Made by a program: the position numbers and the translations under genes. The notes under the pieces were generated by a model, which made no database searches, had not been told where the DNA came from, and saw only the letters and a list, made by a program, of their open reading frames with translations. From an uncultured candidate division WWE3 bacterium (GTDB taxonomy: Bacteria > Patescibacteriota > WWE3 > UBA101185 > UBA10185): a stretch of 52,406 bases of DNA. Where the stretch lies: contig CAIRNR010000007.1 in the NCBI GenBank assembly GCA_903879985.1, positions 531,519 through 583,924 on the forward strand, in the 5' to 3' direction. Below are positions 1 to 37,822 of this stretch, in pieces; position 1 is the stretch's first letter; each line of letters starts with the position of its first letter.

Positions 1-391
<391 letters not shown>

Positions 392-4416: not shown

Positions 4417-4442
4417 ATTATTTAGTATAAGTTAATTTCACG

Positions 4443-4470
4443 TCCCCTACCCAAAAGGTAGGGGATTTGT
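4443..4470 (+). terminator. rho-independent terminator after rpsA
   Basis: TCCCCTACC (4443-4451) pairs with GGTAGGGGA (4457-4465) around the loop CAAAA, followed by TTTGT. Confidence 0.6.
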
Positions 4471-4479
4471 AAATCAATT

Positions 4480-6777
4480 ATGATTCTTGAACGTTTAACA
4501 CAAAGAGCAAAATCAGCACTTTTGGAACTTCCTCAGAAAAATAAGGTTTCAGGTGCGTCAATTGCCAGTGCCATAATAAAAGTTGATGGTATGGGTAAGA
4601 TGTTACTTCAAACAGTTCACGGACTCAGTATTCCCAAGAAGAATATGATATCTACCGACGATTTACTAAAGGAAGCTTATTACCAGTCCGTAAAGTTTGA
4701 ACACATGTACGTTGGTACCGAGCACTTACTCTTAGCTCTTTTTAAACTTTCAGACTCCCCAGATTATCAGCGCATAAAGCTTGAGTTAATAAAGCTAAGC
4801 GTTTTCCCAAATACCATTAAACAAATAGATAAAACACGTAAAACGCCAATTTTGGACGCTTTTGGTGAGAACTTAAACCAGAAGACAATTAAAAATATTG
4901 ATAAACCTTTGATTTATCGAGATGCCTATGACTCTTTAGTTGCATCACTTCTTTTAAAAAACACCTCTAATGTTTTGTTGCTTGGCGAACCGGGCGTAGG
5001 CAAGAGAACATTAGTCGAGCTTTTAGCGCGCAACATAACTTCTTTGGATGTTCCTCCGGCTTTAGCAGGCTATCAGGTAATTTCCTTTGATATGTTGGCA
5101 TTTATGACCAGTCTTTTTAACAAAGGTGGCGTCGAAGTTGGGCTTGCACAGTTGGCAGATGAGCTTAGAAGCCTAAATAGAGTAATACTGTTTATCAAAA
5201 ACTTTCAAAATGCTTTCTTTGCAACAGCGATGGGCATTTCTGTGCCTGTTTTCTATAGCATGTTCAAATCTACACTTGCGGCAACCGACGTGAAAATTAT
5301 AGCTACTATGAGTACCAATCTTTACGATCGACTTATCGCTGAAAATGAACATGTGGTTGAGGATTTTGGCACTATCGAGATCACAGAACCGGACGAAGAC
5401 GAAATAAAAAAGATTTTAGAATCAACGGCAATGTATTTAAGTGAGTTTCATAACGTTGAAATCTCAAAAGCAATCACGCGATTAATCTACAAAAAGGCTA
5501 AGGAAATGGACAATACAGATAAATTCCCACAAAAAGGCGTGGATTTAATGGACCATTGCTGTACTTTCGTTATCTTGAGAAAGAGCACTATACCAAAAGC
5601 TTATAAAAACATGGTTGATCAAAGCTTTGATCTTTTAAGCGAATTAGACGCTAAAATCGGTGATGGTCGTTACGATAAAGCCTTAAAGTTACGAACACAG
5701 CTTAGAAAATATGATGCAAAACTTACTCAAAAAGAGGAACAGATCTTTGTATCCCAAAAACGCTTAAAACTTACTCCGGAGGATATTAAAGAAGCTGTAT
5801 CGGTGTTTAAGGAAGATCGAAACATTGAGGATACTTCAACAAGTATCACAAAACTTACAAATCTTGCCACTAAAGTAAAAACAAAGATAGTCGGTCAAGA
5901 TGAAGCTGTTGATACTGTAGCAAAGTCTTTAATCCGTGCCAGTCTAGGCTTACGTTCACGCAAAAGACCATTGGGTAACTTTTTGTTCCTTGGTCCTACC
6001 GGCGTTGGTAAAACAGAGTTAGCTAAGGTATTGGCCGAAACATACTACGGAGATAAAGCTCTAATACGCTTAGACATGAGTGATTTTGCTGAAAAACACA
6101 ATGTTGCACGTTTAGTTGGCGCGCCTCCAGGATATGTTGGCTTTGGCGAAGGCGGCGAACTAACAACTAAGATAGAAAATAAACCTGATAGCGTTGTTTT
6201 ATTCGACGAAATTGAAAAAGCTCACCCTGACGTTTTAAACATATTACTTCAGATAATGGAGGAAGGTGAATTGGTTGATGCAAAGGGTGCGACATTTGAC
6301 TTTTCACGCGCTGTAGTAATACTTACAAGTAACTTGGGTACCGAAATACTTCATAATCAAGAGATAGGCTTCGGAGAAGCCCAATTAACCGAAAAATCTG
6401 TTGAAGGACGCTTACGAAATAATTTAAAGAAAATTTTAAAACCAGAACTAATAAATCGTTTTGACGAAGTCTTAATTTTTAAAAGATTAACAAAAGAAGA
6501 TCAAACAAAAATTTTAGATATTTTAATTAAAGAAGTTTTAATAGTTTTAAAGCAACAGCGCGTCGCTGTAACAATAACGCGAGAAGTAAAAGACGAAGTG
6601 TTACAACTAGGTCACTCACAAGAATATGGTGCCCGCGCCCTGCGAAGAACATTGGAAAAGGAATTACTCGATAAAATAGCAGAATTTTTACTCAATCATC
6701 CAAAACGTCCTTTAAATCTGCATATTTCTATTGTGGATGGAAAAATATTCGTGGAAAACCAACGCGTTACCAAGTAA
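4480..6777 (+). CDS. clpC: Clp/Hsp100 family AAA+ ATPase (ClpC-like) with a degenerate first nucleotide-binding domain
   Basis: Clp_N-like segment (YVGTEHLLLALF). D2 is canonical: GPTGVGKTELAK, VVLFDEIEKAHPDV, EYGARALRR. D1 has GEPGVGKRT and VILFIKNFQ in place of GK[ST] and hhhhDE. Confidence 0.85.
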   Translation: MILERLTQRAKSALLELPQKNKVSGASIASAIIKVDGMGKMLLQTVHGLSIPKKNMISTDDLLKEAYYQSVKFEHMYVGTEHLLLALFKLSDSPDYQRIKLELIKLSVFPNTIKQIDKTRKTPILDAFGENLNQKTIKNIDKPLIYRDAYDSLVASLLLKNTSNVLLLGEPGVGKRTLVELLARNITSLDVPPALAGYQVISFDMLAFMTSLFNKGGVEVGLAQLADELRSLNRVILFIKNFQNAFFATAMGISVPVFYSMFKSTLAATDVKIIATMSTNLYDRLIAENEHVVEDFGTIEITEPDEDEIKKILESTAMYLSEFHNVEISKAITRLIYKKAKEMDNTDKFPQKGVDLMDHCCTFVILRKSTIPKAYKNMVDQSFDLLSELDAKIGDGRYDKALKLRTQLRKYDAKLTQKEEQIFVSQKRLKLTPEDIKEAVSVFKEDRNIEDTSTSITKLTNLATKVKTKIVGQDEAVDTVAKSLIRASLGLRSRKRPLGNFLFLGPTGVGKTELAKVLAETYYGDKALIRLDMSDFAEKHNVARLVGAPPGYVGFGEGGELTTKIENKPDSVVLFDEIEKAHPDVLNILLQIMEEGELVDAKGATFDFSRAVVILTSNLGTEILHNQEIGFGEAQLTEKSVEGRLRNNLKKILKPELINRFDEVLIFKRLTKEDQTKILDILIKEVLIVLKQQRVAVTITREVKDEVLQLGHSQEYGARALRRTLEKELLDKIAEFLLNHPKRPLNLHISIVDGKIFVENQRVTK

Positions 6778-6813: not shown

Positions 6814-8160
6814 ATGCCAAAAATTCGAACCGTTTATACTTGTCAAAATTGTGCTTATCAAACATCTAATTGGGTTGGACAGTGTCCCAGTTGTAAAGAA
6901 TGGAACACGTTTATAGAAGATGTTGTAATGGATTCTCCAAAAACAAAAACGGGACATCGCGCAGGTTCGGGAAGCGGCATGTCTTCGATAACTCCAATTA
7001 AACTTGCAGACGTAATATCAGTACCAACGCAAAGACTTTCAACAAGTATTGCGGAGTTCGATCGCGTGCTCGGTGGCGGATTTGTTCCCGGACAAGTTGT
7101 TTTGCTCGCAGGCGAACCAGGTATTGGTAAAAGTACCTTGCTAACAGAAATTTCACGCAGCCTTGGTGATAACAATCTTTTGTATATAGCCGGTGAAGAA
7201 AGTGTTGAGCAAATAAAGATTCGCGCGCAGCGCATGGGATACGACGCAAAAAACTTATACATGCTTGCCGAAACAAATGTTGAGTCAATTGTTAGTGCAA
7301 TTGAAACCGAGGTAAATGCTGAATCAAACATTAAACTCGTAATCATTGATTCTGTTCAAACAATTTATATGGATGAGGTCACAGGCGTTGCAGGTTCACT
7401 CACACAAGTTAGGGGAGGAACACAAATTTTAACGGCTGTGGCCAAGCGTTTAGGAATTCCGTTAGTTTTAGTGGGTCACGTTACAAAAGAAGGTGTTGTT
7501 GCCGGTCCAAAAGTTTTAGAGCACATTGTTGATACAGTTTTATATTTAGAAGGTGACTCTCAACATATGTATCGTTTGTTACGCACAAGTAAAAATAGAT
7601 TTGGCCCGGTTTCAGAAGTTGGAATATTTGAAATGGCGGAACAGGGAATGAAAGAAATAACAAATCCTTCTGAATTATTTTTAGAACAGCGCATGGAAGG
7701 TGCATCTGGTTCATGTGTAACAATCGTTATGGAAGGTTATCGTCCAATTTTATTTGAAGTCCAAGCACTTACAGTAAAAACATCATTTGGTTACCCACGA
7801 CGAACAGCCAGCGGTTTTAATGCAAACAGGTTACAGGTTCTCATCGCCACACTAGAAAAACGAGCTGGACTCAATTTGAGCGGTCACGATGTGTATCTAA
7901 ACATCGCAGGTGGTTTTAAAGTTTCAGAATACGCAGCTGATCTTGCAGTTTGTTTAGCAATTGTTTCAGCATTAAAAGATATTCCAATAAAAAAGCGTAC
8001 TGCAGTGTTTGGTGAAGTAGGTTTAAATGGCGAAATACGAAATGTTACTCATCAATCTAAGCGCATTGCCGAAGCAAAAAAGCTTGGTTATACAAATGTT
8101 ATAAGTCCGGATAAATATCGTGACCTTGTAGCTGTTGTTAAAACGGCGCTAGAAAAGTAG
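6814..8160 (+). CDS. radA: DNA repair protein RadA/Sms
   Basis: N-terminal zinc ribbon CQNCAYQ...CPSCKEWNTF, Walker A GEPGIGKSTL, the RadA motif KNRFG, and a Lon-protease-like C-terminal domain. Confidence 0.93.
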   Translation: MPKIRTVYTCQNCAYQTSNWVGQCPSCKEWNTFIEDVVMDSPKTKTGHRAGSGSGMSSITPIKLADVISVPTQRLSTSIAEFDRVLGGGFVPGQVVLLAGEPGIGKSTLLTEISRSLGDNNLLYIAGEESVEQIKIRAQRMGYDAKNLYMLAETNVESIVSAIETEVNAESNIKLVIIDSVQTIYMDEVTGVAGSLTQVRGGTQILTAVAKRLGIPLVLVGHVTKEGVVAGPKVLEHIVDTVLYLEGDSQHMYRLLRTSKNRFGPVSEVGIFEMAEQGMKEITNPSELFLEQRMEGASGSCVTIVMEGYRPILFEVQALTVKTSFGYPRRTASGFNANRLQVLIATLEKRAGLNLSGHDVYLNIAGGFKVSEYAADLAVCLAIVSALKDIPIKKRTAVFGEVGLNGEIRNVTHQSKRIAEAKKLGYTNVISPDKYRDLVAVVKTALEK

Positions 8161-9705: not shown

Positions 9706-9894
9706 ATGTCAACTAAATCGGCCACTAATGGCGCAAAGATAAAAACTACTATTCTATTAGATAAAACATTAAAAAAACTTGCACAAGTTTATGCTATTCA
9801 AAACGATATGGGACTTGGGGAACTAATAGAGGAGGCTTTGTCAGGTGTGTTGTTAGGGGATCATGAACCTAATAATGGTAAAAATAAGGCTTAA
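9706..9894 (+). CDS. ribbon-helix-helix (CopG/Arc-like) small DNA-binding protein, 62 aa
   Basis: A strand-helix-helix pattern is read in KTTILLDKTLKKLAQVYAIQNDMGLGELIEEALSGVL. No partner toxin gene is adjacent. Confidence 0.55.
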   Translation: MSTKSATNGAKIKTTILLDKTLKKLAQVYAIQNDMGLGELIEEALSGVLLGDHEPNNGKNKA

Positions 9895-9972: not shown

Positions 9973-10305
9973 CTTCCCATAAACCAGAGAGAGGTAATCA
10001 AATACTAATTAACCTCTAACACTTAAATTTAATCTGCCGACGCAATTTGAATACCAATTTATGCCTTCAAGCAATTGATGGTGCTAACTGGTAGTCAAAA
10101 AGACTATCACAGTACTTTTAAAACTTGTTGTGAGAAACGTAGCCAAGTCTTCTTTGACTTGTCGAATATGTTATTTCCTGGTCTGCATTAAGAATATAGA
10201 AGGCTATTTAAGCTTTGTGTGTTTTTGGTGCAGGTTGGGAATTGAAAGGGTGATACATCCCAAAATCATATTCGTTATATATATATTCAAAAGGAGAGTA
10301 ATACA

Positions 10306-11136
10306 ATGGCTAAATTTGTACCCACTACTGAAGACGTCAATCGAAAAGAATTCCAAGGTCTCCTGGCACAATTAAGGGACTCGGAAACGATGGAAAAGTT
10401 GTTGAAAGCAGGGAAAGCTTCTTTCACTACAATTGCCAACGTTGCTGAAACCGAAAAAGTTCTGGCCGACCACGAAAACGTTATCGCTGATGTGCAGGAC
10501 AAGTTTACACTTGTGATGCAGGCCGCCCTGGCGATTGTGGAATTCAAAGAAGCGATGCTCAATAAAGTCAACGGAATTTCCGCAGTCTTAACAGATTTGC
10601 AGATGGCCCGCGCGCAGGAAGACCTTGAAATCCAGCGTGTTTATGCGGCACGCCAGGAATTCCAGGCTGCAATGGCACCTGCCAGTGGTAATGCTCCCAG
10701 GCTTCAAGAAGCTATTGCAAGGTTTGATCCTTCAGCTTCTTTTGTTGCCTCGCCAAAGATGGCTACTGTCGAGCAGATTTTGGCAAGTATTGCGCCGATG
10801 CTCCCGGGAATTGTTCCGACTGTTACGTTGGAAGATCCGGAAGAGTTCGATGTTTTGGCCTTCATCCCGGACGAGTTGCTTCGCATTATCACCGCAGCTG
10901 ACCAGGATGAAATCGCTAAACTTCAAACTGCCATGAAAAATGCCAGCAACGAATTCTGGAATGCCCAGTTCGCCCGCGATACCCAGGCTGCCCAGGAAAA
11001 AGCCGCGATTCAGACCCAGCTCAACGAAACCCTGGCACATGCTGAAGATTTTGTTAAGACCGCATTGCAGTATATGGATTCCAAACAGCAGGCGGCATAT
11101 ATGGCAAATTTGCGTGCAAAGGGGCATAAGATCTAG
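10306..11136 (+). CDS. hypothetical protein, 276 aa, Ala/Gln/Glu-rich, predicted helical, GC-rich gene
   Basis: ORF preceded by AAAGGAGAG with 9-nt spacing. GC is about 50% by hand count. No family recognised. Confidence 0.8.
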   Translation: MAKFVPTTEDVNRKEFQGLLAQLRDSETMEKLLKAGKASFTTIANVAETEKVLADHENVIADVQDKFTLVMQAALAIVEFKEAMLNKVNGISAVLTDLQMARAQEDLEIQRVYAARQEFQAAMAPASGNAPRLQEAIARFDPSASFVASPKMATVEQILASIAPMLPGIVPTVTLEDPEEFDVLAFIPDELLRIITAADQDEIAKLQTAMKNASNEFWNAQFARDTQAAQEKAAIQTQLNETLAHAEDFVKTALQYMDSKQQAAYMANLRAKGHKI

Positions 11137-11155
11137 TTCTCACAACAGTAACACA

Positions 11156-11189
11156 GTGCCAAAAGAAAAATAAAACATTCTTTTGGCAC
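11156..11189 (+). terminator. perfect 12-bp hairpin after the 276-aa gene
   Basis: GTGCCAAAAGAA (11156-11167) pairs with TTCTTTTGGCAC (11178-11189) around a 10-nt loop. There is no clear U-tract, so its terminator function is uncertain. Confidence 0.45.
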
Positions 11190-11408
11190 CTATCTTAAGT
11201 GCTTAAAATAATTTTTGAGCCTTTAAGATTCTTACATTATGCAGTTTGACAATTGGTGGATTTATTAAGCATTCGTCATAACTTCTTCGACGATTATCAA
11301 CCTGGTACCCTCACAGTTTATATATTTGTATGTATGCTGTGTGGGTAAGCAGGTTGGATTGGAAATCGCTGTAATCAATGTTCAAGAATCAATAAATGGA
11401 GGTTTGAA

Positions 11409-12263
11409 ATGGATTTAAGTCACTTAGTACCCGAAGAAGAAGTTGAAGTTGAAGAACCGCAAGACGCCCCTCGCCGCCGAGGATATTTTGACACCCCGAT
11501 CTGGCGCTACGCGTTGATCGGACTGGGCGTGCTCGTGATTTTGGGCCTGTTATTTTTGGTCATAAATGCCGCACAGCGCGCAATGTTGCCGAAGTCAAGC
11601 ACTCCTAACAGCGCCGCTTTGGTAGCTCCAGTTCAGGCCAATACCCCGACCGAGGATGCTCCCGCGCAGAACACCGCGATTCCGCAGGCAACGATGACAC
11701 CGTTTGTCGATGCTAACGCCAAGAAGACTGAAGTTGTTCCCGCTGCCGCCGCTCCCGCCGTGGACCCGCCCGCTGGTATGTTACCCCTGGACGCAATTCA
11801 CAATGTGGGGACTGGCGCGGACATTATTACTGGGTTCGCAGATACTAAGTTGGCAAACCCGCAGATCGTGATTTACGACACGGTGAAAAGCAATCCCTTT
11901 GACGGAGCAGACCCATCTTCAGCTGAAGATACCCGGGTTTTGTACTGTCATTCGGAGAAAGCTGCTGTAAGTCTGAAGGATGCCGCCGGCAAAGAAGTAT
12001 ACGCGGCAAACCTGTCGGACAAGAAACAGAGTTTCATCCTGGTTGCCCTTTTCGGACCTGGATACACTCTGACTATCAATGGTGTACCGTACAATGCGGC
12101 TACAAACCACAAAAATTCGTGGTGTGAAATGTTCGCGGCGCCTAAAGGATCTGATCTTCTCAAGGCAGCTCGCGACGAATTTAACCATTTCATGGTTGCT
12201 GATCCGACAAAATATGGCATCATCGTCGATCAGACCGGAAAAATGGTATTCGAACAGAAATAA
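11409..12263 (+). CDS. hypothetical single-pass membrane protein, 284 aa, with a Pro/Ala-rich linker and an extracytoplasmic C-terminal domain; very GC-rich gene
   Basis: SD is GGAGG, 6 nt upstream. TM helix YALIGLGVLVILGLLFLVI, then a linker rich in P/A/T. Local GC reaches ~60% by hand count. Confidence 0.8.
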   Translation: MDLSHLVPEEEVEVEEPQDAPRRRGYFDTPIWRYALIGLGVLVILGLLFLVINAAQRAMLPKSSTPNSAALVAPVQANTPTEDAPAQNTAIPQATMTPFVDANAKKTEVVPAAAAPAVDPPAGMLPLDAIHNVGTGADIITGFADTKLANPQIVIYDTVKSNPFDGADPSSAEDTRVLYCHSEKAAVSLKDAAGKEVYAANLSDKKQSFILVALFGPGYTLTINGVPYNAATNHKNSWCEMFAAPKGSDLLKAARDEFNHFMVADPTKYGIIVDQTGKMVFEQK

Positions 12264-12334
12264 TCCACCAATCTGCAAGCACTAAATGTAAGGCCTGAAA
12301 ACGACTCACCCACCGTTTAAGGCAAAAAAACAAA

Positions 12335-12378
12335 AAGCCCGCGAAAATCTAAACAATTTCCGCGGGCTTCTCTTTTCT
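12335..12378 (+). terminator. rho-independent terminator
   Basis: AAGCCCGCG (12335-12343) pairs with CGCGGGCTT (12361-12369), followed by CTCTTTTCT. Confidence 0.7.
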
Positions 12379-12418: not shown

Positions 12419-14728
12419 ATGAACAAATCAAAAACATTTCCAGCATTTTCACCAATCGTACTTTTGATACTAATAATATTGTTTCATTTGGCCCTCAACT
12501 CTATATGGCAGGACGTCAATAAAGCTCCACCAACATGGGATAGTGCAGGTCATTTAACTACAGCCTATATATTTGCTCACAAGATTCCTGAACTCTTTAC
12601 AGGCCGCATGACTCTTGAAAACTTCTATAAGGTTTCCACTTACTATCCACCACTTGTTCAAATGTTAGGCGGTGCAACTTTTATGCTTTTTGGGTTCGAT
12701 TACCAATGGGCGTTTTTGCTTGAAACATTGTTTCTTATACTCGCCATTATTTATCTCTATAAAATTGTTCTTCATTATTTTAAAGATGCAAATTTAGCTG
12801 TTTTAACGGTTTTTATATTTTCTTTTTTTCCGCAAGTATGGCAGCAGAGTAGAGAGTTTCACCTAGATGTTCCGCTAGTGGCGTTGTTGTTAGTTTCTTA
12901 TTACTACCTAATACTTTCCAATTCTTTGAGAAATGTTAAATACGCTGTTCTGTTTTTTATTTTCTTTACGTTGGGTCAGTTAACTAAATGGTATGGTTTT
13001 GTATTTTTAGTTGTTCCATTTATTTACGAGGTAATTGTCAAAATGATTCAGGCACGTGATTTTGATAATAAAGAGCGTATTCGAAATACACTAATAGGTT
13101 CGGTGATTGTGATCGCTGGAGCCTTTCCTTGGTATATATTGAATTTCACCAATTTGGTAAACATTGTGGGAATAACAGCGCAAGGTGATGCAGGTGATCC
13201 AACTAATATTTGGAGTTTAGAAAGTATTTTCCATTATTTGGAAATGATGATGTCGCACCAACTCACTTTTGTTGCTGTTTTAATGCTTCTCGGCGCGATG
13301 TATTTGTTTAACAAACACAAAGTTCCTTGCAGAAATTACGTTTTCCATTTAATCGCATTTCCTTATGTTGTTTTCACATTGATTCAGAATAAAGATCTTA
13401 GATACATTTTGCCTTTAACTCCAATGTTTGCATTTTATATTGCCTATGCCTTGCTGAAAATAAACTTTATGGCGAATAAAGTTGTGTTGGCAATATTTTC
13501 TGTTTATTTAATGATGATGTTCTTCTTTTTGTCGTTTAACCAGCTAAGTCCGCTTCCGGTTTGGTTGCAGCCGATAACAGTTACGATGGCCGGACCTTAT
13601 TACACGGCATGGTTGGCGGATCCTTTAAATTATTCTTACAATTCACACGATTGGCAAAATGATACGGTTTTACAGGCAATAGAAAATGACACCAACAGAT
13701 TTGGTACTAAACCTGCAAACCCCTACAAAGTTTTATCTCTTTCAGAGAATCAGTTTTTTTCTGTGGCTTCGCTTGAGATGCACCGTTGGAAAAATGAAGA
13801 TTTTAACATTGATATCGTAACGCCTTTTTATCAACTAAGCCCTTTTAATACAGAAGCGCAACAAAATTATTTGGATCAAATGGAGTACGCGGTTGTTCCG
13901 GATAGTCCAGGTCCCGCTGGTTTGCGCAATTACGCTGTTTTAACACAACTAATCAATTTCTTTAAGTCTGACCAAAACAAAGACTTTGTTGTTATAAATA
14001 AAGTTACATTGCCAGACACCAACGTTATTTCTTTATACAAAAGAGTTAGTTCTTCTGCAGTAAACACACCAAACCTACGGGAAGATAGTTTAAAGATTAG
14101 TATAGGTAATGTTCTCTTTTTGGACCGTGAAAAAACGCAAGGTTTGCCGTTTAATGTTTATTTGTACGACGCTGACGGCAAGGAATCCATTGTGGATGTT
14201 TCCGGTGGTGGCGCTCAGCGTAGAATCCCACTTGATGGTTACTCTAAAGTTCGTATTGATCTGCCTGTAAACCAGCAAAATGTACTGGAGATGCGCGGTT
14301 GGGACTTTTTCACCTTTTTAAATGGCACGTTTGTTCGTGATGCTTCGTACGCTACTGTAGTAACGGACTCGGGTAATGAGTTTATTTATGATGGTTTAAA
14401 CATTACGCCACGTTCAAAGTATCCAAATGATGTTGCATATAAACCCAATATTATTGTTACCTATGCTGACGATGGCATAAAGTTGTCCCTGGCCGCTGAA
14501 GATACTGCAGAAAAAGTATATGTAGCGTACGCTTCTATCGGTTGGCAATGGAACACATTGTGGCTTGATCAAAACCAACGCGAGGTAACTATACCTACAA
14601 CAGGTTTATTACAACTTGAAATTACCCAACGAAGCCAATTGATTGTAGGATTTCCAACCACTTGGGGTTTCTTTAAGTGCTATGACGGGCGCGCGGTTTG
14701 TTTTTATCCGTCGGCCGCTAACTTATGA
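12419..14728 (+). CDS. polytopic membrane glycosyltransferase-like protein (GT39/GT83, ArnT/PMT-like) with a large C-terminal extracytoplasmic domain, 769 aa
   Basis: About 12 predicted TM helices in the first ~400 aa, with an early periplasmic-loop motif PPTWDSAGHL, then a ~350-aa soluble domain. The family call comes from architecture and is not verified. Confidence 0.6.
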   Translation: MNKSKTFPAFSPIVLLILIILFHLALNSIWQDVNKAPPTWDSAGHLTTAYIFAHKIPELFTGRMTLENFYKVSTYYPPLVQMLGGATFMLFGFDYQWAFLLETLFLILAIIYLYKIVLHYFKDANLAVLTVFIFSFFPQVWQQSREFHLDVPLVALLLVSYYYLILSNSLRNVKYAVLFFIFFTLGQLTKWYGFVFLVVPFIYEVIVKMIQARDFDNKERIRNTLIGSVIVIAGAFPWYILNFTNLVNIVGITAQGDAGDPTNIWSLESIFHYLEMMMSHQLTFVAVLMLLGAMYLFNKHKVPCRNYVFHLIAFPYVVFTLIQNKDLRYILPLTPMFAFYIAYALLKINFMANKVVLAIFSVYLMMMFFFLSFNQLSPLPVWLQPITVTMAGPYYTAWLADPLNYSYNSHDWQNDTVLQAIENDTNRFGTKPANPYKVLSLSENQFFSVASLEMHRWKNEDFNIDIVTPFYQLSPFNTEAQQNYLDQMEYAVVPDSPGPAGLRNYAVLTQLINFFKSDQNKDFVVINKVTLPDTNVISLYKRVSSSAVNTPNLREDSLKISIGNVLFLDREKTQGLPFNVYLYDADGKESIVDVSGGGAQRRIPLDGYSKVRIDLPVNQQNVLEMRGWDFFTFLNGTFVRDASYATVVTDSGNEFIYDGLNITPRSKYPNDVAYKPNIIVTYADDGIKLSLAAEDTAEKVYVAYASIGWQWNTLWLDQNQREVTIPTTGLLQLEITQRSQLIVGFPTTWGFFKCYDGRAVCFYPSAANL

Positions 14729-26662: not shown

Positions 26663-27334
26663 CTAATTTGTAAACCACCAATTAAACTCGGCGTTGCTTG
26701 CTACCGGGGCGTCTGTTTCAACTAAAAAACCTTCTTGGTCCTTAATTTGGGATACCCAATAACGTGTAGCAGGTGAATAATCTTGATTAAAAGTTATATA
26801 TACTTTGGAATTTGCTTTTATATTGTCGGATTTTATAAAAATACTTCTTTGGTTATTTGGAACAAACGCTACACCTTGTGCCACTACTTGATTTGGCATT
26901 TCTACGTTTGTGCTATTAACAGAGTTTCTAAGATTGTCTTTTGATTTGCCTAGGTTAATAATTCCCATTTCGCTACTTACTATTAAAATAAGTAGTACTA
27001 ACATTGTGTATAAAAGTATTTGATTTCTAAGTTCTTTTGAAGTAATTCCTGAAATAATAGTTTGAAGTTTGTTTTTAGTGTTAATTTTTCCTTCGATTTC
27101 GTCGTTAGTAAGTCCCTGAGTCTTTAAATCTTCTATCAAAACTATTTGGTCCACGACTGTAGAAGGGTAGTGTCCTTTTATATTTCCTTCGGCATCTCTT
27201 TGTCGTGACATGTGTGGGAGCCATCCTATCTTTGTGTAATATCGAAGTCTGTTATATGGATCGCCTTTTCCAAAATCAACACCCTTTTGTTTTGCTTCCT
27301 TTATAACGTTGTCTATGCTTAGTAGAGTAGTCAT
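26663..27334 (-). CDS. MerR-type HTH domain protein with a TM helix and an extracytoplasmic C-terminal domain, 223 aa
   Basis: MerR-like pattern LRYYTKIGWLPHMSRQRDAEGNIKGHYPSTVVDQIVLIEDLKTQGLTNDEI, then the TM helix ILLYTMLVLLILIVSS, then a ~90-aa domain. Confidence 0.6.
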   Translation of the reverse strand: MTTLLSIDNVIKEAKQKGVDFGKGDPYNRLRYYTKIGWLPHMSRQRDAEGNIKGHYPSTVVDQIVLIEDLKTQGLTNDEIEGKINTKNKLQTIISGITSKELRNQILLYTMLVLLILIVSSEMGIINLGKSKDNLRNSVNSTNVEMPNQVVAQGVAFVPNNQRSIFIKSDNIKANSKVYITFNQDYSPATRYWVSQIKDQEGFLVETDAPVASNAEFNWWFTN

Positions 27335-27436: not shown

Positions 27437-28324
27437 ATGCCTGCAACAAATTCAATAGAAGACACGTTTGTAGCTATCACCGATGATACTTATCCTAAAC
27501 TTTTGAAGGAAATTCCAAATCCACCTAAACTTTTATATTACAAAGGTAACTATAATAGTATGAATTTCGAAAATTGTTTAGGAATTGTGGGAAGTAGAAA
27601 AATGACTGAGTATGGTCGTGAGGTAATTAAGTATGTTTTGCAAACTCTAACTCATAGAAAAATTACTGTGGTTTCGGGCTTCACTTTTGGGGTAGACGCG
27701 TGTGTACACAGAACATGTTTGGAATTAGATATACCTACTATAGGGGTTTTTCCGGGCGGTTTGGATATTTGCCCCCACAGTAGCCTGTGCGATGTGTATG
27801 AACAATTAGTATACTCTGGCGGATTGGCGGTTTCGGAATTTGCTTGTGGTTTTCAACCACGGATTTGGAGTTTTCCTCGAAGAAATCGTATAGTTGCAGG
27901 CCTTTGTAAGGCACTATTGGTTGTAGAAGCAGCAAAAGACAGTGGCTCTTTAATTACATCCGGTTTTTCTCGTAAATTCGGACGAAAAGTGTTCGCAGTG
28001 CCTGGAAATATCTTTAGTGACACCTCTGTCGGCTGTAACGAGATATTGTCTACTTATGCGCAAGCAATGTACTCGAATATTACGATAAATCGCTTTTTTG
28101 AAATTTCGGGTGGTTTGGAAAAGTCAAAAGATACTTCTAAAAAAGTACGGGATCCCATTGAAAATAAAATTGTAAAATTACTTAGAGCCAGCCGCATGCC
28201 AATAGATGACATTTCTAAAATACTTGAATATGACATTGTGACTACTTCAAAATTACTAACGCTACTTACATTAAACGGAGAAATTACGGAAGAAGGAGGT
28301 TACTATTATGCTAGTAATCATTGA
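27437..28324 (+). CDS. dprA: DNA processing protein DprA (Smf)
   Basis: Rossmann-like DprA core GIVGSRKMTEYGR...VVSGFTFGVDACVHR...RNRIVAGL, plus a C-terminal winged-helix-like tail. Confidence 0.88.
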   Translation: MPATNSIEDTFVAITDDTYPKLLKEIPNPPKLLYYKGNYNSMNFENCLGIVGSRKMTEYGREVIKYVLQTLTHRKITVVSGFTFGVDACVHRTCLELDIPTIGVFPGGLDICPHSSLCDVYEQLVYSGGLAVSEFACGFQPRIWSFPRRNRIVAGLCKALLVVEAAKDSGSLITSGFSRKFGRKVFAVPGNIFSDTSVGCNEILSTYAQAMYSNITINRFFEISGGLEKSKDTSKKVRDPIENKIVKLLRASRMPIDDISKILEYDIVTTSKLLTLLTLNGEITEEGGYYYASNH

Positions 28325-29846
28325 TTCCGTGGCATTTGTTGGGCTTGATGTTGTAAAGGTACACGTTGAGGTAAATGTTTCTACCAGAGGACTTCCTAGT
28401 TTTGATATTGTTGGTCTGCCTGATAAGTCCGTAGGGGAAAGTAAGCATCGTATAAAGGCGGCTTTTCAAAATTCTAAATTAGATTTTCCCAATAAACGCA
28501 TAACTGTGAACTTGGCTCCTGCGGATATTCATAAAGAAGGTTCTTTCTATGATTTTCCTATTGCCGCAGGAATACTTTGTGCGTGTAAGGGTTTGCAACC
28601 TCCGGATAACAGCCTTTTTTTCGGTGAACTTTCCTTAAATGGTTCGTTAAATTCCACTCGTGGCGCATTTCTTTTATCTTTGTTCGCAAAAGAGAATAAT
28701 ATTAGCTGCATATTTTTACCTTCTAAGAATTGTCAGGAGGCGTGTTCTGTAGCAGACGTAAGAATATTCGGGATCGATTCAATAAATGCATTGGCGAGTC
28801 ATTTAGAGGGTCGGTTTAAAGTTGAACCTTATATAAAAAATCAAATTTCAGTAAACATCCAAAATTCTGTGCAGAATCAACCCACAGACTTTAAAGATAT
28901 TCTTGGCCAAGAATTTGCAAAGCGTGCTCTTCAGATTTGTGCGACAGGTGGGCATAATATATTACTATGCGGTCCTCCGGGGGCAGGAAAAAGTCTACTA
29001 GCCAATGCACTTATGTCTATAATGCCTCCACTTTCGGCAGATGAAAGTGTTGAAGTGACAAAAATATATTCATTGTTAGGATCTACTGCTAAAAGCAATT
29101 ATCTTATAACTGACAGGCCTTTTAGAAATCCCCATCACACAACATCTTATGGGGGTATGCTTGGTGGTGGTAATAGGTTATTGCCCGGTGAAATAACTTT
29201 GGCGCATAGAGGAATTCTTTTTTTAGACGAGTTGCTGGAATTCAATAAAAACGTACTAGAGGCTTTAAGAACGCCACTTGAGACAGGAAATATTACGCTA
29301 ATTCGCTGTAGAGGCAGCATAACTTTTCCTGCAAGTTTTATGCTTGTTGCGGCGTGCAATCCCTGTCCTTGTGGTTTTTACGGTGCGTTTAATAAAAAAT
29401 GCGTCTGTAGTTTAAGTCAGGTGCAAAATTATCAGCGTAGACTTTCAGGACCATTATTAGATAGAATTGACCTGTATGTAAACGTAAAGCCCGTTGAGCA
29501 GCAGAGGTTACTTGAGTTTGCTAACAACAATGAAAAGAATTCTGATTGTTATAAACAGCAAGTTATGTCTGCCAGAAATGTGCAAGAAAAACGATTTCAA
29601 GATTTATCCTTTAAAACTAATTCTCAAATGAAGGGAAAAGATGTTGCACAGTGGTGTAAACTTAGTAATTCTGTACAAGGTCTAATGAAAATGGCAGTTA
29701 TGCACTTTGGACTTTCTGCGCGAGGATATTTTAAAGTGATAAAAGTTGCTAGAACAATAGCCGACTTAGACTGTAAGGACGCCATTCTCGAAGAACACGT
29801 AGCCGAAGCGTTGCAGTACAGAATCAAAACACTTGAATTGAAATAA
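28308..29846 (+). CDS. comM: ComM/YifB Mg-chelatase-like AAA+ ATPase
   Basis: N-terminal Lon-like domain (ITVNLAPADIHKEGSFYDFPIA), Walker A GPPGAGKS, Walker B ILFLDEL, and a Cys-rich insert CNPCPCG. It overlaps dprA by 17 nt and is preceded by AGGAGG. Confidence 0.9.
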   Translation: MLVIIDSVAFVGLDVVKVHVEVNVSTRGLPSFDIVGLPDKSVGESKHRIKAAFQNSKLDFPNKRITVNLAPADIHKEGSFYDFPIAAGILCACKGLQPPDNSLFFGELSLNGSLNSTRGAFLLSLFAKENNISCIFLPSKNCQEACSVADVRIFGIDSINALASHLEGRFKVEPYIKNQISVNIQNSVQNQPTDFKDILGQEFAKRALQICATGGHNILLCGPPGAGKSLLANALMSIMPPLSADESVEVTKIYSLLGSTAKSNYLITDRPFRNPHHTTSYGGMLGGGNRLLPGEITLAHRGILFLDELLEFNKNVLEALRTPLETGNITLIRCRGSITFPASFMLVAACNPCPCGFYGAFNKKCVCSLSQVQNYQRRLSGPLLDRIDLYVNVKPVEQQRLLEFANNNEKNSDCYKQQVMSARNVQEKRFQDLSFKTNSQMKGKDVAQWCKLSNSVQGLMKMAVMHFGLSARGYFKVIKVARTIADLDCKDAILEEHVAEALQYRIKTLELK

Positions 29847-29849
29847 TAA

Positions 29850-30167
29850 ATGTTGTATAGTCCAAACGTTATGATGCTAGAGAAAGTTTCCAAAGCTTTA
29901 TCCGATAAAAATAGATTAAAAATTATCCAGTTCTTGAGTTCTGGTCAGAAAAATGTCAGTGAAGTTGCTGATAGATTAAATGTTGAAGAAAACTTAGCCT
30001 CGCATCATCTTAGAGTTTTAGCATCACTTGGTTTTTTGAAGAATGATAAAAAAGGAAGAGAAGTATTCTACAAAATAAACGAGACAAAACTTATCGCTTT
30101 AATAAAAGATATAAGTAAAAATGCTGTTTTCAAGGATTTGTTACTTAAGGCTATGGAAGAAGAATAA
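29850..30167 (+). CDS. ArsR/SmtB family winged-helix transcriptional regulator
   Basis: LSDKNRLKIIQFLSSGQKNVSEVADRLNVEENLASHHLRVLASLGFL is the classic ArsR HTH pattern. The gene starts 3 nt after the comM stop. Confidence 0.85.
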   Translation: MLYSPNVMMLEKVSKALSDKNRLKIIQFLSSGQKNVSEVADRLNVEENLASHHLRVLASLGFLKNDKKGREVFYKINETKLIALIKDISKNAVFKDLLLKAMEEE

Positions 30168-30347
30168 TATTGGTAGTGTATTTTTTTTAGCTTCTTGTTT
30201 GCGTTTATTGTGCGGTAATTAAATATACAATGTTGTTTAAGCAACAAATAGTGGTTGAATTCTTGCGGTAATTGTTGCCAATACGTTTTCTACTTTACAT
30301 AGATAAATTTCCCTAGAAAAAAGTTGAAATAACAAATATAAGTAACT

Positions 30348-31031
30348 GTGCTTATTTTTCAGTCGGAAGAATTTAAAGAACTTCTCTTAAAAAACTTAGT
30401 GTACATCTTAGCCGCTTGCTTGGTTCTTGGCGGGGGACTTGGATTTATATTGACTAAGCAGTATTTAAACACAAATTGTAATCTTTCATTACCAACAAAA
30501 ACAGCCGAGGAACCTGTTAAAAATATTAAAATAGATTTATCCGGTGCTGTTAAAAAACCGGGTGTTTATGAAGTACAAAGTAATTCCAGAGTAGGCGATG
30601 TAATTATTTTAGGCGGCGGTTTTACAAGTGATGCCAGTTCAGAGTGGGTATCGAAAAATATTAATCTGTCTAAAACATTGGTTGATTCAGCAAAAATATA
30701 TATTCCTTTTGAATGGGAGATTTTTGAGAACTTTACATATGAATTAATTCCTTTAATAGGTGACAAAGTTTTACAATCCAGTTCGAGTTCTACAACCCAG
30801 GCCACTAATAGTGCAAATACTTCTGGTACAACAACTAATAATGATTCTGTTATCACGGTAAATGTAAACACTGCCAGTCTAAGTGATTTGGACGCACTTT
30901 CAGGAATAGGGCCTGCATATGCACAAAAAATAATTGATAACAGACCTTACTCAAATTTCGACGAATTCAAAACTAATTCCAAAATACCCCAGACTACTGC
31001 AGATAATTTAAAAGATAAAATATCTTTTTGA
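30348..31031 (+). CDS. comEA: ComEA DNA receptor (TM anchor, SLBB-like domain, helix-hairpin-helix)
   Basis: GTG start and an N-terminal TM. C-terminal HhH motif VNVNTASLSDLDALSGIGPAYAQKIIDNRPY. Confidence 0.85.
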   Translation: MLIFQSEEFKELLLKNLVYILAACLVLGGGLGFILTKQYLNTNCNLSLPTKTAEEPVKNIKIDLSGAVKKPGVYEVQSNSRVGDVIILGGGFTSDASSEWVSKNINLSKTLVDSAKIYIPFEWEIFENFTYELIPLIGDKVLQSSSSSTTQATNSANTSGTTTNNDSVITVNVNTASLSDLDALSGIGPAYAQKIIDNRPYSNFDEFKTNSKIPQTTADNLKDKISF

Positions 31032-31032
31032 C

Positions 31033-37533: not shown

Positions 37534-37584
37534 TTTCTGATATAATCCTTATGTTTTACCCTGTAATGTTTGTTTAGTTGTCGT

Positions 37585-37674: not shown

Positions 37675-37691
37675 TAAATAAATGTACGTAA

Positions 37692-37717: not shown

Positions 37718-37822
37718 ATAGGTGGCGTGGGATGAGAATAGACGGGGTCGAGAAACGTACAGAACCTTTGAGCGTTAGCGAAATAGGTTGTGTAGTTTGG
37801 TGACCGAATCCCTCAACAAAAT

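What the first reader, a model, noticed from the sequence alone, without database searches (positions are those of the whole stretch)
10306..12378. Two-gene high-GC ORFan island embedded in a low-GC genome
Hand counts of 60-nt lines give roughly 47-55% GC across most of 10306-11136 (one line ~40%) and up to ~60% in 11409-12263. The flanking RHH gene (9706-9894) and the glycosyltransferase gene (12419-) are mostly ~27-40% GC. This is the only place in the window where long antisense and alternate-frame ORFs pile up on both strands (10287-11173, 11919-12285), which is the usual artefact of GC-rich coding DNA. Both genes carry canonical Shine-Dalgarno sites (GGAG, GGAGG) that most housekeeping genes here lack. 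Each has its own hairpin terminator, and they share a 5' motif (separate finding). The products are a 276-aa Ala/Gln/Glu-rich, predicted all-helical cytoplasmic protein and a 284-aa protein. The latter has an acidic N-terminus, one TM helix, a Pro/Ala-rich linker and a ~150-aa outside domain with two Cys. I recognise no family for either. My inference is a recently acquired foreign two-gene module of unknown function, and it is the best candidate in the window for an undescribed system.
Basis: partly seen in the sequence, partly recalled or inferred. Interest (0 to 1): 0.7.

Follow-up and report, generated by a model that had tools for sequence, protein, structure and literature searches.

The report
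Swappable GC-rich surface-protein cassettes in WWE3
The two GC-rich genes are real, but they are this candidate-division WWE3 bacterium's version of a strain-variable cassette slot found at the same place in all its relatives, probably encoding a membrane-anchored surface protein, and not a one-off foreign insertion.

Summary
ORF-A (10306-11136) and ORF-B (11409-12263) have 48.9% and 51.8% GC in a 38% GC window. Their GC3 z-scores are 6.6 and 7.6, and the tetranucleotide z-score is 9.2. They carry two of only four Shine-Dalgarno sites among 36 genes, and each has its own terminator. The same arrangement recurs in many independent assemblies, so it is not a chimera.

The window is chromosomal DNA of a CPR bacterium of candidate division WWE3.
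- **Same slot in relatives:** every WWE3 relative found carries one or two GC-rich (48-56%), SD-led genes between the PIN-TRAM/RHH genes and a PMT_2 glycosyltransferase. These genes mostly encode single-pass membrane proteins with variable ectodomains.
- **ORF-B:** it is a remote positional orthologue of that family.
- **ORF-A:** it has no relative among 1.84 billion representative proteins.
- **Leaders:** both genes sit behind long, strand-specific, G·U-rich 5' hairpins. ORF-B's matches a model of the relatives' leaders; ORF-A's does so only weakly.
- **Swapping:** two strains with 99.5-99.7% identical flanks carry unalignable cassettes, so the cassette is exchanged as a unit.
- **Codon usage:** cassette coding regions share a codon dialect unlike any host background, while their non-coding parts track host GC.

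The function is unknown. My best guess is a variable surface protein.

The parts
9706..9894 (+). Conserved left-flank gene: 62-aa ribbon-helix-helix (Arc/CopG-like) protein. It is context, not part of the GC-rich unit.
   Evidence: tblastn finds 69-76% identity over 25-26 residues at the same position in L004, L005 and L006. It has a weak Arc-like PHROG hit (E 0.004). GC is 34.4%.
10171..10248 (+). Leader hairpin A: a long imperfect stem-loop in the 5' untranslated region of ORF-A. Its 3' arm holds the 'shared motif' GCAGGTTGG.
   Evidence: RNAfold gives -36.2 kcal/mol on the sense strand against -10.6 on the antisense strand, with 33 pairs of which 11 are G·U. The z-score against shuffles is -5.1 for 10165-10310. 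The covariance model R1, built from relatives only, ranks it 4th in the window at 11 bits, E 0.66, which is not significant on its own.
10292..10296 (+). Shine-Dalgarno site AGGAG, 9 nt before the ORF-A start codon.
   Evidence: Read from the sequence. Only 4 of 36 genes have such a site.
10306..11136 (+). ORF-A: 276 aa, no TM segment, Ala/Leu/Glu/Gln-rich, predicted all-helical. It is a sequence ORFan with the cassette codon dialect.
   Evidence: GC is 48.9% and GC3 0.505. RSCU correlates with the background at r = 0.06, and with relatives' cassettes at 0.41-0.59. Its only relative in 5.8e9 and 1.84e9 protein sets is its own truncated variant P0001. The AF2 model has pLDDT 53.8 and is all helix. 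Foldseek and PDB sequence searches found nothing.
11156..11189 (+). Terminator hairpin after ORF-A (GTGCCAAAAGAA / TTCTTTTGGCAC, 12-bp perfect stem, 10-nt loop).
   Evidence: Inverted repeat I11.
11295..11362 (+). Leader hairpin B in the 5' untranslated region of ORF-B. It is a member of the leader RNA family of the WWE3 cassettes.
   Evidence: Covariance model R1, built only from seven relatives' leaders, gives its best hit in the whole window here: 20.8 bits, E about 7e-4. RNAfold gives -32.5 kcal/mol on the sense strand against -23.3 on the antisense strand. The z-score is -4.0.
11398..11402 (+). Shine-Dalgarno site GGAGG, 6 nt before the ORF-B start codon.
   Evidence: Read from the sequence. 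Relatives' cassettes carry the same GGAGG or AGGAG site.
11409..12263 (+). ORF-B: 284 aa. It has an acidic N-terminal tail (residues 1-20), an RRR motif followed by one TM helix (34-52), a Pro/Ala/Thr-rich linker (about 60-125) and a beta-rich C-terminal domain (about 126-284, 2 Cys). The predicted topology is N-in, C-out. It is a remote positional orthologue of the P0003 family.
   Evidence: GC is 51.8% and GC3 0.537. The maximum Kyte-Doolittle score is 2.88 at residue 34. The family domain HMM scores 14.7 bits, E 1.2e-6 for a single-sequence database; 0 of 2000 shuffles reach it, and the match is collinear over HMM positions 10-147. BLASTP against L004 gives E 6e-4. In the AF2 model the C-terminal domain has block-mean pLDDT 61-86, with nine strands and one helix. 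Foldseek has no PDB match with E <= 0.001; the best is E 0.047.
12332..12372 (.). Terminator after ORF-B: a GC-rich hairpin (AAGCCCGCG...CGCGGGCTT) with A/T runs on both sides.
   Evidence: Terminator scan and inverted repeat I4.
12419..14728 (+). Conserved right-flank gene: a 769-aa PMT_2-family (ArnT/PMT-like) membrane glycosyltransferase. It is context.
   Evidence: Pfam PMT_2 at E 7.7e-13. It is 40-41% identical to the gene directly after the cassette in L004, L005, L088, L089 and L093.

Best explanation
ORF-A and ORF-B are the local contents of a strain-variable cassette locus that is conserved across candidate division WWE3, a CPR lineage. The locus lies between the PIN-TRAM and RHH genes and a PMT_2 glycosyltransferase.

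**The cassette unit (shown).** Each cassette is its own transcription unit. It has a long leader that folds into a strand-specific, G·U-rich hairpin of 24-33 bp. It also has a strong Shine-Dalgarno site, in a genome where most genes lack one, then the coding region and a terminator. In relatives the whole unit (leader, coding region and terminator) differs between near-identical strains, with sharp breakpoints.

**How it is exchanged (inferred).** Cassettes are swapped by homologous recombination in the conserved flanks. The window encodes DprA, ComM, ComEA, ComEC and RadA, so natural transformation is a plausible route.

**ORF-B (partly shown, partly inferred).** ORF-B is a divergent member of the resident protein family. 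Its predicted topology is N-in, C-out: a short acidic cytoplasmic tail, one TM helix, a flexible Pro/Ala/Thr stalk and a beta-rich ectodomain of about 150 aa. I infer that it is a surface-exposed, rapidly diversifying protein. Candidate roles are attachment or recognition of a host cell, or a phage-receptor or coat component under diversifying selection. The adjacent PMT_2 enzyme may glycosylate it.

**ORF-A (inferred).** ORF-A occupies a second, tandem cassette with the same expression signals. It encodes a soluble helical protein of unknown role. L095 has a soluble helical protein followed by a TM protein, and L006 has a fused version, so a cytoplasmic partner module may be a recurring theme.

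**The composition (shown, cause unknown).** High GC, strong TA depletion and avoidance of ATA, AGA and ACA codons are properties of cassette coding regions in every host. They are not marks of a recent foreign origin.
For: **Identity and synteny.** The PIN-TRAM protein is 62-64% identical to WWE3 genomes, including the complete RAAC2_WWE3_1 genome. The order S1, Clp, RadA, PIN-TRAM, RHH, then a 2-2.5 kb gap, then PMT_2 and a 1100-1200-aa protein is conserved.

**Contents of the slot.**
- L004 and L005 carry 426- and 282-aa proteins with an acidic tail, TM helix, Pro/Ala linker and a 150-aa domain.
- L087, L088, L089 and L093 carry a TM helix, a coiled-coil stalk and a Cys-containing domain.
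- L095 carries a 163-aa soluble helical protein plus a 275-aa TM protein. L006 carries a 370-aa fused form.

**ORF-B homology.** Evidence comes, and weakly. The type-1 and type-2 ectodomains are weakly related to each other (hhalign E 3.3e-4 over 91 columns).

**Cassette swapping.** L087 and L085 have flanks 99.7% and 99.5% identical. The 1.1-kb and 1.6-kb segments between them are unalignable. The left breakpoint falls just after CTTTGACAAGGTrrGTGTGG, about 200 nt upstream of the ATG. The right breakpoint falls about 150 nt after the stop codon. L089 and L088 have flanks 88-90% identical and cassettes that cannot be aligned.

**Leader.** Hairpins have z-scores of -4.0 to -5.3 in the window, L005 and L006. 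They are far more stable on the sense strand. RNAalifold predicts 20 pairs, 8 of them with compensatory changes. Covariance model R1 hits one site per relative locus, and its best window hit is ORF-B's leader.

**Composition.**
- Cassette GC is 48-56% and GC3 is 0.50-0.58, in hosts with GC3 of 0.30-0.50.
- RSCU correlation between cassette and background is -0.15 to 0.21. For rpsA it is 0.52-0.82.
- The RSCU shifts (cassette minus background) correlate between genomes, mostly at 0.3-0.85.
- TA odds ratios are 0.49-0.64 in cassettes against 0.76-0.82 in backgrounds. ATA makes up 0.06 of Ile codons against 0.41, and AGA 0.04 of Arg codons against 0.37.
- Leaders and terminators track host GC.

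**Not a chimera.**

**Shine-Dalgarno sites.** They are rare in this genome: 4 of 36 genes.
Against: - ORF-B's link to the family is statistically modest (14.7 bits; hhalign probability 27%). It leans on synteny and architecture.
- ORF-A has no detectable relative, and its leader matches the model only weakly (E 0.66).
- No alternative cassette has been seen in the window's own species. All recovered contigs are about 100% identical, so swapping is shown only in relatives.
- Surface exposure, glycosylation and the biological role are inferred. There are no expression or localisation data.
- The cause of the compositional dialect is unexplained. A pool that circulated only among hosts of 38-45% GC should drift toward host composition unless selection or an outside source maintains it.
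Confidence: 0.6

Rival explanations
1. One reading: a recent, one-off horizontal acquisition, from outside the lineage, of a two-gene module that forms an undescribed functional system.
For: The compositional deviation is very strong. Codon usage is unrelated to the host. ORF-A has no relative anywhere. ORF-B has no close relative.
Against: - The same slot holds GC-rich genes in all relatives.
- ORF-B is homologous to the resident family and its leader belongs to the resident leader family.
- The spacers have host-like GC of 34%.
- There is no integrase, no flanking repeats and no viral, plasmid-like or defence signature.
- The genes have separate leaders and terminators, and they co-occur nowhere else.
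Confidence: 0.1
2. The genes are native, vertically inherited and very highly expressed, for example the major envelope or coat protein. Their composition comes from expression-linked selection, either for translationally preferred codons or for mRNA stability through avoidance of AU- and UA-rich cleavage sites. Gene transfer plays no essential role.
For: - The dialect is confined to coding regions while the spacers track the host.
- The pattern resembles classic high-expression bias: ATA, AGA and AGG avoided; TTC, ATC, ACC, CGT and CGC preferred.
- Strong SD sites occur in a genome that mostly lacks them.
- Long 5' hairpins resemble known mRNA stabilisers, and the terminators are strong.
Against: - rpsA, normally a strongly biased gene, follows the background (r 0.52-0.82).
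- In the 45% GC clade rpsA uses more ATA and AGA/AGG than the background, which is the opposite direction. The correlation between the cassette shift and the rpsA shift is -0.34 to 0.24.
- Vertical inheritance alone cannot explain unalignable cassettes between flanks that are 99.6% identical.
Confidence: 0.25
3. The locus is a recombination hot spot, and GC-biased gene conversion raises its GC.
For: Cassette replacement shows frequent recombination at the locus. GC3 is elevated in every host.
Against: - The elevation stops at the coding boundaries. Leaders, spacers and terminators inside the exchanged unit have host GC.
- The shift is codon-specific. In the window GAA stays at 0.86 and AAA at 0.61, while CAG rises to 0.83.
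- TA depletion is not what a plain AT-to-GC fixation bias predicts.
Confidence: 0.07
4. The island is an assembly chimera or contaminating DNA from a GC-richer organism.
For: The composition is atypical. Three 1-kb contigs (L001-L003) join the first 231 codons of ORF-A to unrelated sequence.
Against: The exact ORF-A and ORF-B proteins occur on 17 and 16 contigs, the longest 715 kb, from NCBI, JGI, ENA and Logan. The contigs retrieved show the same neighbours. Five of six loci retrieved with DNA are 100% identical to the window; the sixth differs only at a 10-N scaffold gap. The leaders are homologous to those of relatives.
Confidence: 0.01
5. The island is a conflict module, such as a toxin-immunity pair, a polymorphic toxin or an anti-phage defence system, inserted next to the PIN-domain and RHH genes.
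For: The locus is variable. In L008 and L096 the region after PIN-TRAM holds VapC-like, AbrB-like and AbiE-like genes. An RHH gene lies upstream.
Against: There are no significant PADLOC, Pfam or PHROG hits. The Cas10 hit scores 18 bits against a cut-off of 79. In most relatives the cassette is a single gene, so no cognate immunity partner exists. The PIN-TRAM gene is a conserved housekeeping-type neighbour.
Confidence: 0.04

Closest known systems
Hypothetical membrane-protein family of candidate division WWE3 (P0003 of RAAC2_WWE3_1, P0004 UV83_C0005G0040, P0005-P0009; uncharacterised, no Pfam)
   Same: It sits in the same genomic position, directly upstream of the orthologous PMT_2 glycosyltransferase. 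Its length (282 aa against 284 aa) and architecture are the same: acidic EV-rich tail, TM helix, Pro/Ala linker and a domain of about 150 aa ending G-x-x-F-x-x-K. It has the same type of leader hairpin, GGAGG site and codon dialect.
   Different: Sequence identity is only about 20-25%. The match is significant only in a targeted test (E 1.2e-6 for a single-sequence database), not database-wide. ORF-B has two Cys residues and lacks several residues that are invariant in the family.
Replacement-type flexible genomic islands for cell-surface structures, e.g. the cell-wall-associated island of Haloquadratum walsbyi (PMC4535781, title and abstract seen) and O-antigen/capsule loci (own knowledge)
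   Same: The position is fixed between conserved flanks. Near-identical strains carry unrelated contents. The composition is atypical, the products are envelope-related and glycosyltransferases lie next door.
   Different: This unit is tiny (one or two genes, 1.1-2.3 kb). It has a conserved promoter box and a structured leader. It is GC-richer rather than AT-richer than the host, and its non-coding parts have host composition.
Clostridioides difficile S-layer cassette (slpA, secA2, cwp2, cwp66, cwp2790; 14 cassette types; SlpA acts as a phage receptor) (PMC8809339; PMC10100898, abstract)
   Same: It is a hypervariable surface-protein cassette at a fixed chromosomal locus, and its variants determine surface recognition.
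   Different: There is no sequence or fold relation. SlpA is a large secreted, cleaved, lattice-forming protein with cell-wall-binding domains. ORF-B is a 30-kDa TM-anchored protein. Abundance and lattice formation are untested here.
Hypervariable single-pass surface protein of a Gracilibacterium (BD1-5) (PMC6851277)
   Same: It is a CPR protein with one N-terminal TM helix and an extracellular remainder, and it shows extreme local variability. The authors interpret it as attachment-related.
   Different: There the variability lies within a PTD repeat array, at the nucleotide level inside one gene. Here whole cassettes differ and there are no repeats.
5' stabiliser hairpins of long-lived mRNAs (ompA leader, S-layer gene leaders, Bacillus aprE/cryIIIA stabilisers) (own knowledge, not tested)
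   Same: A long, stable stem-loop in the untranslated leader of a strongly SD-led gene.
   Different: The transcription start is unmapped, so it is not known whether the hairpin lies at the 5' end. Effects on stability are untested. No Rfam family matches.

Membership tests
WWE3 P0003-type membrane-anchored ectodomain family (for ORF-B) | Detectable sequence homology of the C-terminal domain | tested here: met
   The domain HMM, built from 10 domain copies, scores 14.7 bits, E 1.2e-6 for a single-sequence database. None of 2000 shuffles reach it (maximum 8.2), and the match is collinear over HMM positions 10-147. BLASTP against L004 gives E 6e-4 over 109 aa. The hhalign result is weak (probability 27%). 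The feature is met, but modestly.
WWE3 P0003-type membrane-anchored ectodomain family (for ORF-B) | Architecture: short acidic N-tail, one TM helix, low-complexity stalk, ectodomain of about 150 aa | tested here: met
WWE3 P0003-type membrane-anchored ectodomain family (for ORF-B) | Position directly upstream of the orthologous PMT_2 glycosyltransferase, downstream of PIN-TRAM and RHH | tested here: met
WWE3 cassette leader RNA (model R1) | Match to a covariance model built from relatives' leaders | tested here: met
   ORF-B's leader at 11295-11362 scores 20.8 bits, E about 7e-4, and is the best hit in the window. ORF-A's leader at 10171-10248 scores only 11 bits, E 0.66, which is inconclusive for ORF-A.
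Replacement-type flexible genomic island / allelic cassette locus | Different, unalignable contents between conserved flanks in closely related genomes, with sharp breakpoints | tested here: met
   Shown for L087 against L085, whose flanks are 99.5-99.7% identical. It cannot be tested within the window's own species, because all contigs are identical.
Replacement-type flexible genomic island / allelic cassette locus | Composition distinct from the host genome | tested here: met
   This applies to the coding parts only.
S-layer / major coat protein | Very high abundance and self-assembly into a lattice on the cell surface | not testable with these tools
   No expression or imaging data are available. 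The only support is indirect: expression signals and a suggestion in the literature of a glycosylated S-layer in WWE3 (PMC3812714).
S-layer / major coat protein | Similarity to known S-layer domains (SLH, CWB2, etc.) or folds | tested here: not met
   There are no Pfam hits. Foldseek has no PDB match with E <= 0.001; the best is E 0.047, a generic beta sandwich.
Prophage or integrative mobile element | Integrase or recombinase, flanking direct repeats or a tRNA target, relatives in viral contigs | tested here: not met
   The slot has no such genes. There are no significant flanking repeats, no relatives in IMG/VR and no PHROG match. The nearest tRNA is 12 kb away.
Anti-phage defence or toxin-antitoxin system | Match to a known defence or TA protein model | tested here: not met
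   PADLOC gives only an 18-bit Cas10 fragment hit, far below the 79-bit NCBIfam cut-off.

The most novel reading that the evidence does not exclude
WWE3 bacteria may run a distinct expression regime for an exchangeable surface-protein cassette. The regime combines SD-led translation in a largely SD-less (probably leaderless) genome, a G·U-rich 5' hairpin leader, and a cassette-specific codon dialect held at about 50% GC whatever the host composition. The cassette would encode the still unidentified major surface coat, or the host- and phage-recognition determinant, of these ultra-small cells. ORF-A would represent a wholly new cytoplasmic partner born in this slot.
Probability: 0.2. Interest if true: 0.8.

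Novelty: new variant of a known kind. Interest (0 to 1): 0.55.

Why it matters
CPR bacteria are thought to live attached to other cells. Almost nothing is known about which surface proteins mediate recognition or how those proteins vary.

This locus offers a compact, easily recognised marker: conserved flanks, a conserved leader RNA and a hypervariable coding region. With it, strain-level surface diversity, phage pressure and recombination in WWE3 can be tested from metagenomes.

The decoupling of coding composition from host composition is unusual. It occurs inside a unit whose non-coding parts follow the host. It therefore cautions against reading every GC island as recent foreign DNA.

Tried and rejected
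**Family and structure searches**
- Pfam, NCBIfam, PHROGs and PADLOC scans of both proteins gave only noise: DosC_2nd, Cas10 at 18 bits, and GltJ on the low-complexity linker.
- The word-indexed search of 5.8e9 proteins found only the proteins' own variants.
- The full HMMER search of ORF-A against 1.84e9 representatives found only P0001.
- PDB sequence searches found nothing.
- The AF2 models were of low to moderate confidence, and Foldseek had no PDB match with E <= 0.001.

**Other databases**
- IMG/VR scans found no relatives.
- Rfam found nothing in the island.

**Tests for relatives of ORF-A**
- ORF-A against the L006 370-aa protein, the L095 163-aa protein and the type-2 family showed no relation.

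**Mobile-element borders**
- Searches for flanking direct or inverted repeats found only short chance matches.

**The shared 5' motif**
- As a plain sequence motif it is not enriched (5 matches found, 3.4 expected by chance). It made sense only as the 3' arm of the hairpin.

**Other leaders and within-species variation**
- Upstream regions of other GC-rich surface genes in L006 and L095 do not carry the same leader.
- Within-species SNP analysis was impossible because the contigs are identical. The apparent ORF-B frameshift in L168 is a scaffold gap of 10 N.

**Expression-linked codon bias**
- I tested this with rpsA as a proxy. The cassette dialect does not follow rpsA.


Full report
**1.

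The window is 38.0% GC. ORF-A (10306-11136, 276 aa) is 48.9% GC with GC3 0.505. ORF-B (11409-12263, 284 aa) is 51.8% GC with GC3 0.537. The other 34 genes have mean GC3 0.292 (sd 0.032), so the z-scores are 6.6 and 7.6.

The GC-richest 840-nt window in the whole sequence starts at 11401. The tetranucleotide distance of 10306-12263 from the rest is 9.2 sd above other windows of the same size. Overlapping spurious ORFs are densest here, although the region at 37-40 kb comes close.

AGGAG at 10292-10296 and GGAGG at 11398-11402 are two of only four Shine-Dalgarno-like sites among 36 genes. Many other genes have a TATAAT-like box just before the ATG. Terminator hairpins lie at 11156-11189 and 12332-12372. 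ORF-A has no TM segment and is predicted all-helical. ORF-B has one TM helix (residues 34-52), a Pro/Ala-rich linker and two Cys.

The three spacers are 34-39% GC, like the host.

**2. It is not a chimera, and the organism is a WWE3 bacterium**

The exact ORF-A and ORF-B proteins occur on 17 and 16 contigs, the longest 715 kb, in NCBI, JGI, ENA and Logan assemblies. Every place retrieved that extends beyond the two genes has the same neighbours. Five of six loci retrieved with DNA are 100% identical to the window; the sixth differs only at a 10-N scaffold gap.

The window is ordinary chromosomal DNA. It holds the 23S and 5S rRNA ends, rpsA, a Clp ATPase, RadA, Rho, Obg, DprA, ComM, ComEA, ComEC, ArgRS, Ndk, two sortases and a glycogen cluster.

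The PIN-TRAM protein is 62-64% identical to candidate division WWE3 genomes, including the complete RAAC2_WWE3_1 genome. The glycogen cluster and competence genes match what Kantor et al. described for that genome (PMC3812714).

**3. The slot is conserved; its contents are not**

In L004/L085, L005, L088, L089 and L093, the gene order is S1, Clp, RadA, PIN-TRAM, RHH, then a gap of 2-2.5 kb, then a PMT_2 glycosyltransferase and a 1100-1200-aa protein. This is the same order as in the window. L087, a 7.3-kb contig, covers only the part from Clp to the start of the glycosyltransferase, in the same order.

The gap always holds one or two genes of 48-56% GC:
- **Type 1:** L004 and L005 carry 426- and 282-aa proteins with an acidic tail, a TM helix, a Pro/Ala linker and a 150-aa domain. 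The domain is duplicated in L004.
- **Type 2:** L087, L088, L089 and L093 carry a TM helix, a coiled-coil stalk and a Cys-containing domain.
- **Two-gene form:** L095 carries a 163-aa soluble helical protein followed by a 275-aa TM protein.
- **Fused form:** L006 carries a 370-aa protein with a helical domain, a TM helix and an ectodomain.

In another lineage (L008, L096) the region after PIN-TRAM holds toxin-antitoxin and AbiE-like genes instead.

**4. ORF-B is a remote member of the resident family; ORF-A is an ORFan**

ORF-B and the RAAC2 protein P0003 have the same length and architecture, including an EV-rich acidic tail. An HMM of the family's C-terminal domain matches ORF-B collinearly over nearly the whole domain. 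The score is 14.7 bits, E 1.2e-6 for a single-sequence database, and none of 2000 shuffles exceed 8.2 bits. ORF-A scores 0.2 bits as a negative control.

BLASTP against the L004 protein gives E 6e-4 over 109 residues. The hhalign result is weak. Types 1 and 2 are themselves only weakly related.

ORF-A has no relative in 5.8e9 or 1.84e9 proteins other than a truncated copy of itself. It has no relation to the helical proteins of L095 or L006.

The structure predictions are of low to moderate confidence, and Foldseek finds no PDB match with E <= 0.001. The ORF-B ectodomain is predicted to be a beta-rich domain with one helix.

**5. The 'shared 5' motif' is one arm of a conserved leader hairpin**

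Upstream of both genes, the RNA folds into a long imperfect hairpin (10171-10248 and 11295-11362). GCAGGTTGG forms its 3' arm.

The same kind of hairpin precedes the cassettes of L004/L085, L005, L006, L087, L088, L089 and L093. Sequences differ and some changes are compensatory.

The hairpins are much more stable on the sense strand, because they contain many G·U pairs. In the window, hairpin A gives -36.2 kcal/mol on the sense strand against -10.6 on the antisense strand, with 11 G·U among 33 pairs. This points to an RNA-level function.

A covariance model built only from the seven relatives finds ORF-B's leader as the best hit in the entire window (20.8 bits, E about 7e-4). ORF-A's leader ranks fourth (11 bits, not significant). 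In relatives the model hits exactly one site per locus. No Rfam family matches.

**6. The cassette is exchanged as a unit**

L087 and L085 are 99.7% and 99.5% identical in their left and right flanks. Between those flanks, 1.1 kb in L087 and 1.6 kb in L085 cannot be aligned. One encodes a type-2 protein and the other a type-1 protein.

The left breakpoint lies immediately after a conserved box, CTTTGACAAGGTrrGTGTGG, about 200 nt upstream of the start codon. The right breakpoint lies about 150 nt after the stop codon. The unit is therefore leader plus coding region plus terminator.

L089 and L088 have flanks 88-90% identical and cassettes that cannot be aligned. The window holds two such units in tandem.

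**7. The composition belongs to the cassette coding regions, not to a donor**

I compared seven to eight genomes whose background GC3 ranges from 0.30 to 0.50.
- **Against the host:** cassette RSCU is uncorrelated with the host background (r -0.15 to 0.21). For rpsA, r is 0.52-0.82. Background genes truncated to 280 codons give r 0.47-0.88 in the window.
- **Between genomes:** the shifts of cassettes relative to their backgrounds correlate with each other.
- **Dialect:** pooled over the eight cassettes, ATA makes up 0.06 of Ile codons against 0.41 in the backgrounds, AGA 0.04 of Arg against 0.37, and ACA 0.13 of Thr against 0.33. CGC, ATC, TTC and ACC are preferred. TA is depleted more strongly in every cassette (odds ratio 0.49-0.64 against 0.76-0.82).
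- **Non-coding parts:** the leaders and terminators of the same units track the host. They are 34% GC in the window and 40-42% in the 44-45% GC clade.

A block freshly imported from a GC-richer donor should carry donor-like spacers. Regional biased gene conversion should raise the spacers too. Classic translational selection should be visible in rpsA, but rpsA goes the other way in the 45% GC clade.

I conclude that some coding-level constraint maintains the composition. Selection for mRNA stability, a special decoding regime, or continual input from an unsampled source all remain open. Its nature is unexplained.

**8. Mechanism proposed**

- **Shown:** a conserved slot; a unit made of leader hairpin, SD site, coding region and terminator; replacement of the unit between near-identical strains; a shared codon dialect; ORF-B's TM helix and its homology to the resident family.
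- **Inferred:** exchange occurs by homologous recombination in the flanks, possibly after natural transformation, because the competence genes are present. ORF-B is N-in, C-out with a surface-exposed, fast-diversifying ectodomain used in recognition of host cells or targeted by phages. The adjacent PMT_2 enzyme may glycosylate its Pro/Ala/Thr stalk. This last point is weak, because type-2 stalks are coiled coils. The hairpin may stabilise or regulate the mRNA. ORF-A may be a co-expressed cytoplasmic protein, by analogy with L095 and L006.

**9. Comparison with known systems**

The closest known kinds are:
- replacement-type flexible islands for envelope structures (for example Haloquadratum, PMC4535781);
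- the hypervariable S-layer cassette of C. difficile, whose variants decide phage binding (PMC8809339, PMC10100898);
- the hypervariable single-pass surface protein of a Gracilibacterium (PMC6851277).

This locus differs in several ways. It is very small. It carries a conserved structured leader. It is GC-richer than the host only in its coding parts. One of its genes has no relatives at all.

It is not a prophage, a defence system or a toxin-antitoxin module by any test I could run.

**10. Verdict**

The compositional anomaly is confirmed and striking. It does not mark a one-off foreign module. It is a new variant of a known kind, a swappable surface-protein cassette locus. Two features are puzzling: the host-independent codon dialect, and an ORFan sitting in a duplicated slot. 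Interest is moderate (0.55).

Noticed in passing
window, all 36 gene starts: Only 4 of 36 genes have a GGAG or GAGG site upstream. Many have a TATAAT-like box 6-12 nt before the ATG (for example 6814, 26663-27334 on the minus strand, 44330, 46301 and 49312). This suggests that most mRNAs in this WWE3 genome are leaderless.
   Followed up: partly
L001-L003 against window 10022-10999: Three 1-kb contigs from other assemblies are 100% identical to window 10022 (or 10074) to 10999. They then continue with 25-84 nt of unrelated sequence of about 48% GC, which is open on the minus strand. This truncates ORF-A to 238 aa (P0001). The head of L002 contains a Nextera-adapter-like string (CTGTCTCTTA). 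I could not tell whether this is a real rearrangement or chimeric reads.
   Followed up: partly
window 11592-11603 (ORF-B residues 62, 63, 65): The variant P0002, on a 42.6-kb contig from ERZ1426827, differs from the window's ORF-B only by three clustered substitutions (K62Q, S63A, T65N) at the start of the extracellular linker.
   Followed up: no
L165 (GCA_903994745.1) against window 13215-13779: In this MAG the glycosyltransferase gene is split (462 + 419 aa). The cause is a 565-nt duplication joined through a 46-nt inverted piece, which is probably an assembly artefact.
   Followed up: no
L008 and L096, downstream of PIN-TRAM: In a more distant lineage the region after PIN-TRAM holds AbrB-like plus PIN (VapC-like) genes and two AbiEi/AbiEii-like pairs, in place of the RHH gene, cassette and glycosyltransferase. 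The boundary after PIN-TRAM is therefore a general variable point.
   Followed up: partly
L004/L005/L087/L088/L089/L093, between RHH and the cassette: The 44-45% GC clade has a conserved 94-111-aa small membrane protein here (MSGYMVMGFLGALVAGF...). The window lacks it, and ORF-A lies in roughly that position.
   Followed up: no
L006 15689-16573 (-) and L095 16624-17889 (-): These are further GC-rich (48-51%) secreted proteins with internal repeats of a beta-rich module, located near the cassette locus. They do not have the cassette leader.
   Followed up: partly
window 1-390 and 568-681: The window starts with the 3' end of the 23S rRNA gene, followed by a 5S rRNA gene. This accounts for the GC-rich first kilobase.
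   Followed up: yes
window 27437-32855: A competence and DNA-uptake cluster is present: DprA, ComM-like Mg-chelatase, ComEA-like, ComEC, and a metallo-beta-lactamase-fold protein. RadA lies at 6814-8160. This is consistent with uptake of foreign DNA as a route for cassette exchange.
   Followed up: no
window 4430-4481: The second-best hit of the leader model R1 (14.8 bits, E 0.047) is a short GC-rich hairpin between rpsA and the Clp gene. It is probably just the rpsA terminator.
   Followed up: no
window 37534-38844: This 1.3-kb stretch has no confident gene, only tRNA-Ser and overlapping ORFs on both strands. It shows the second-highest ORF pile-up in the window.
   Followed up: no
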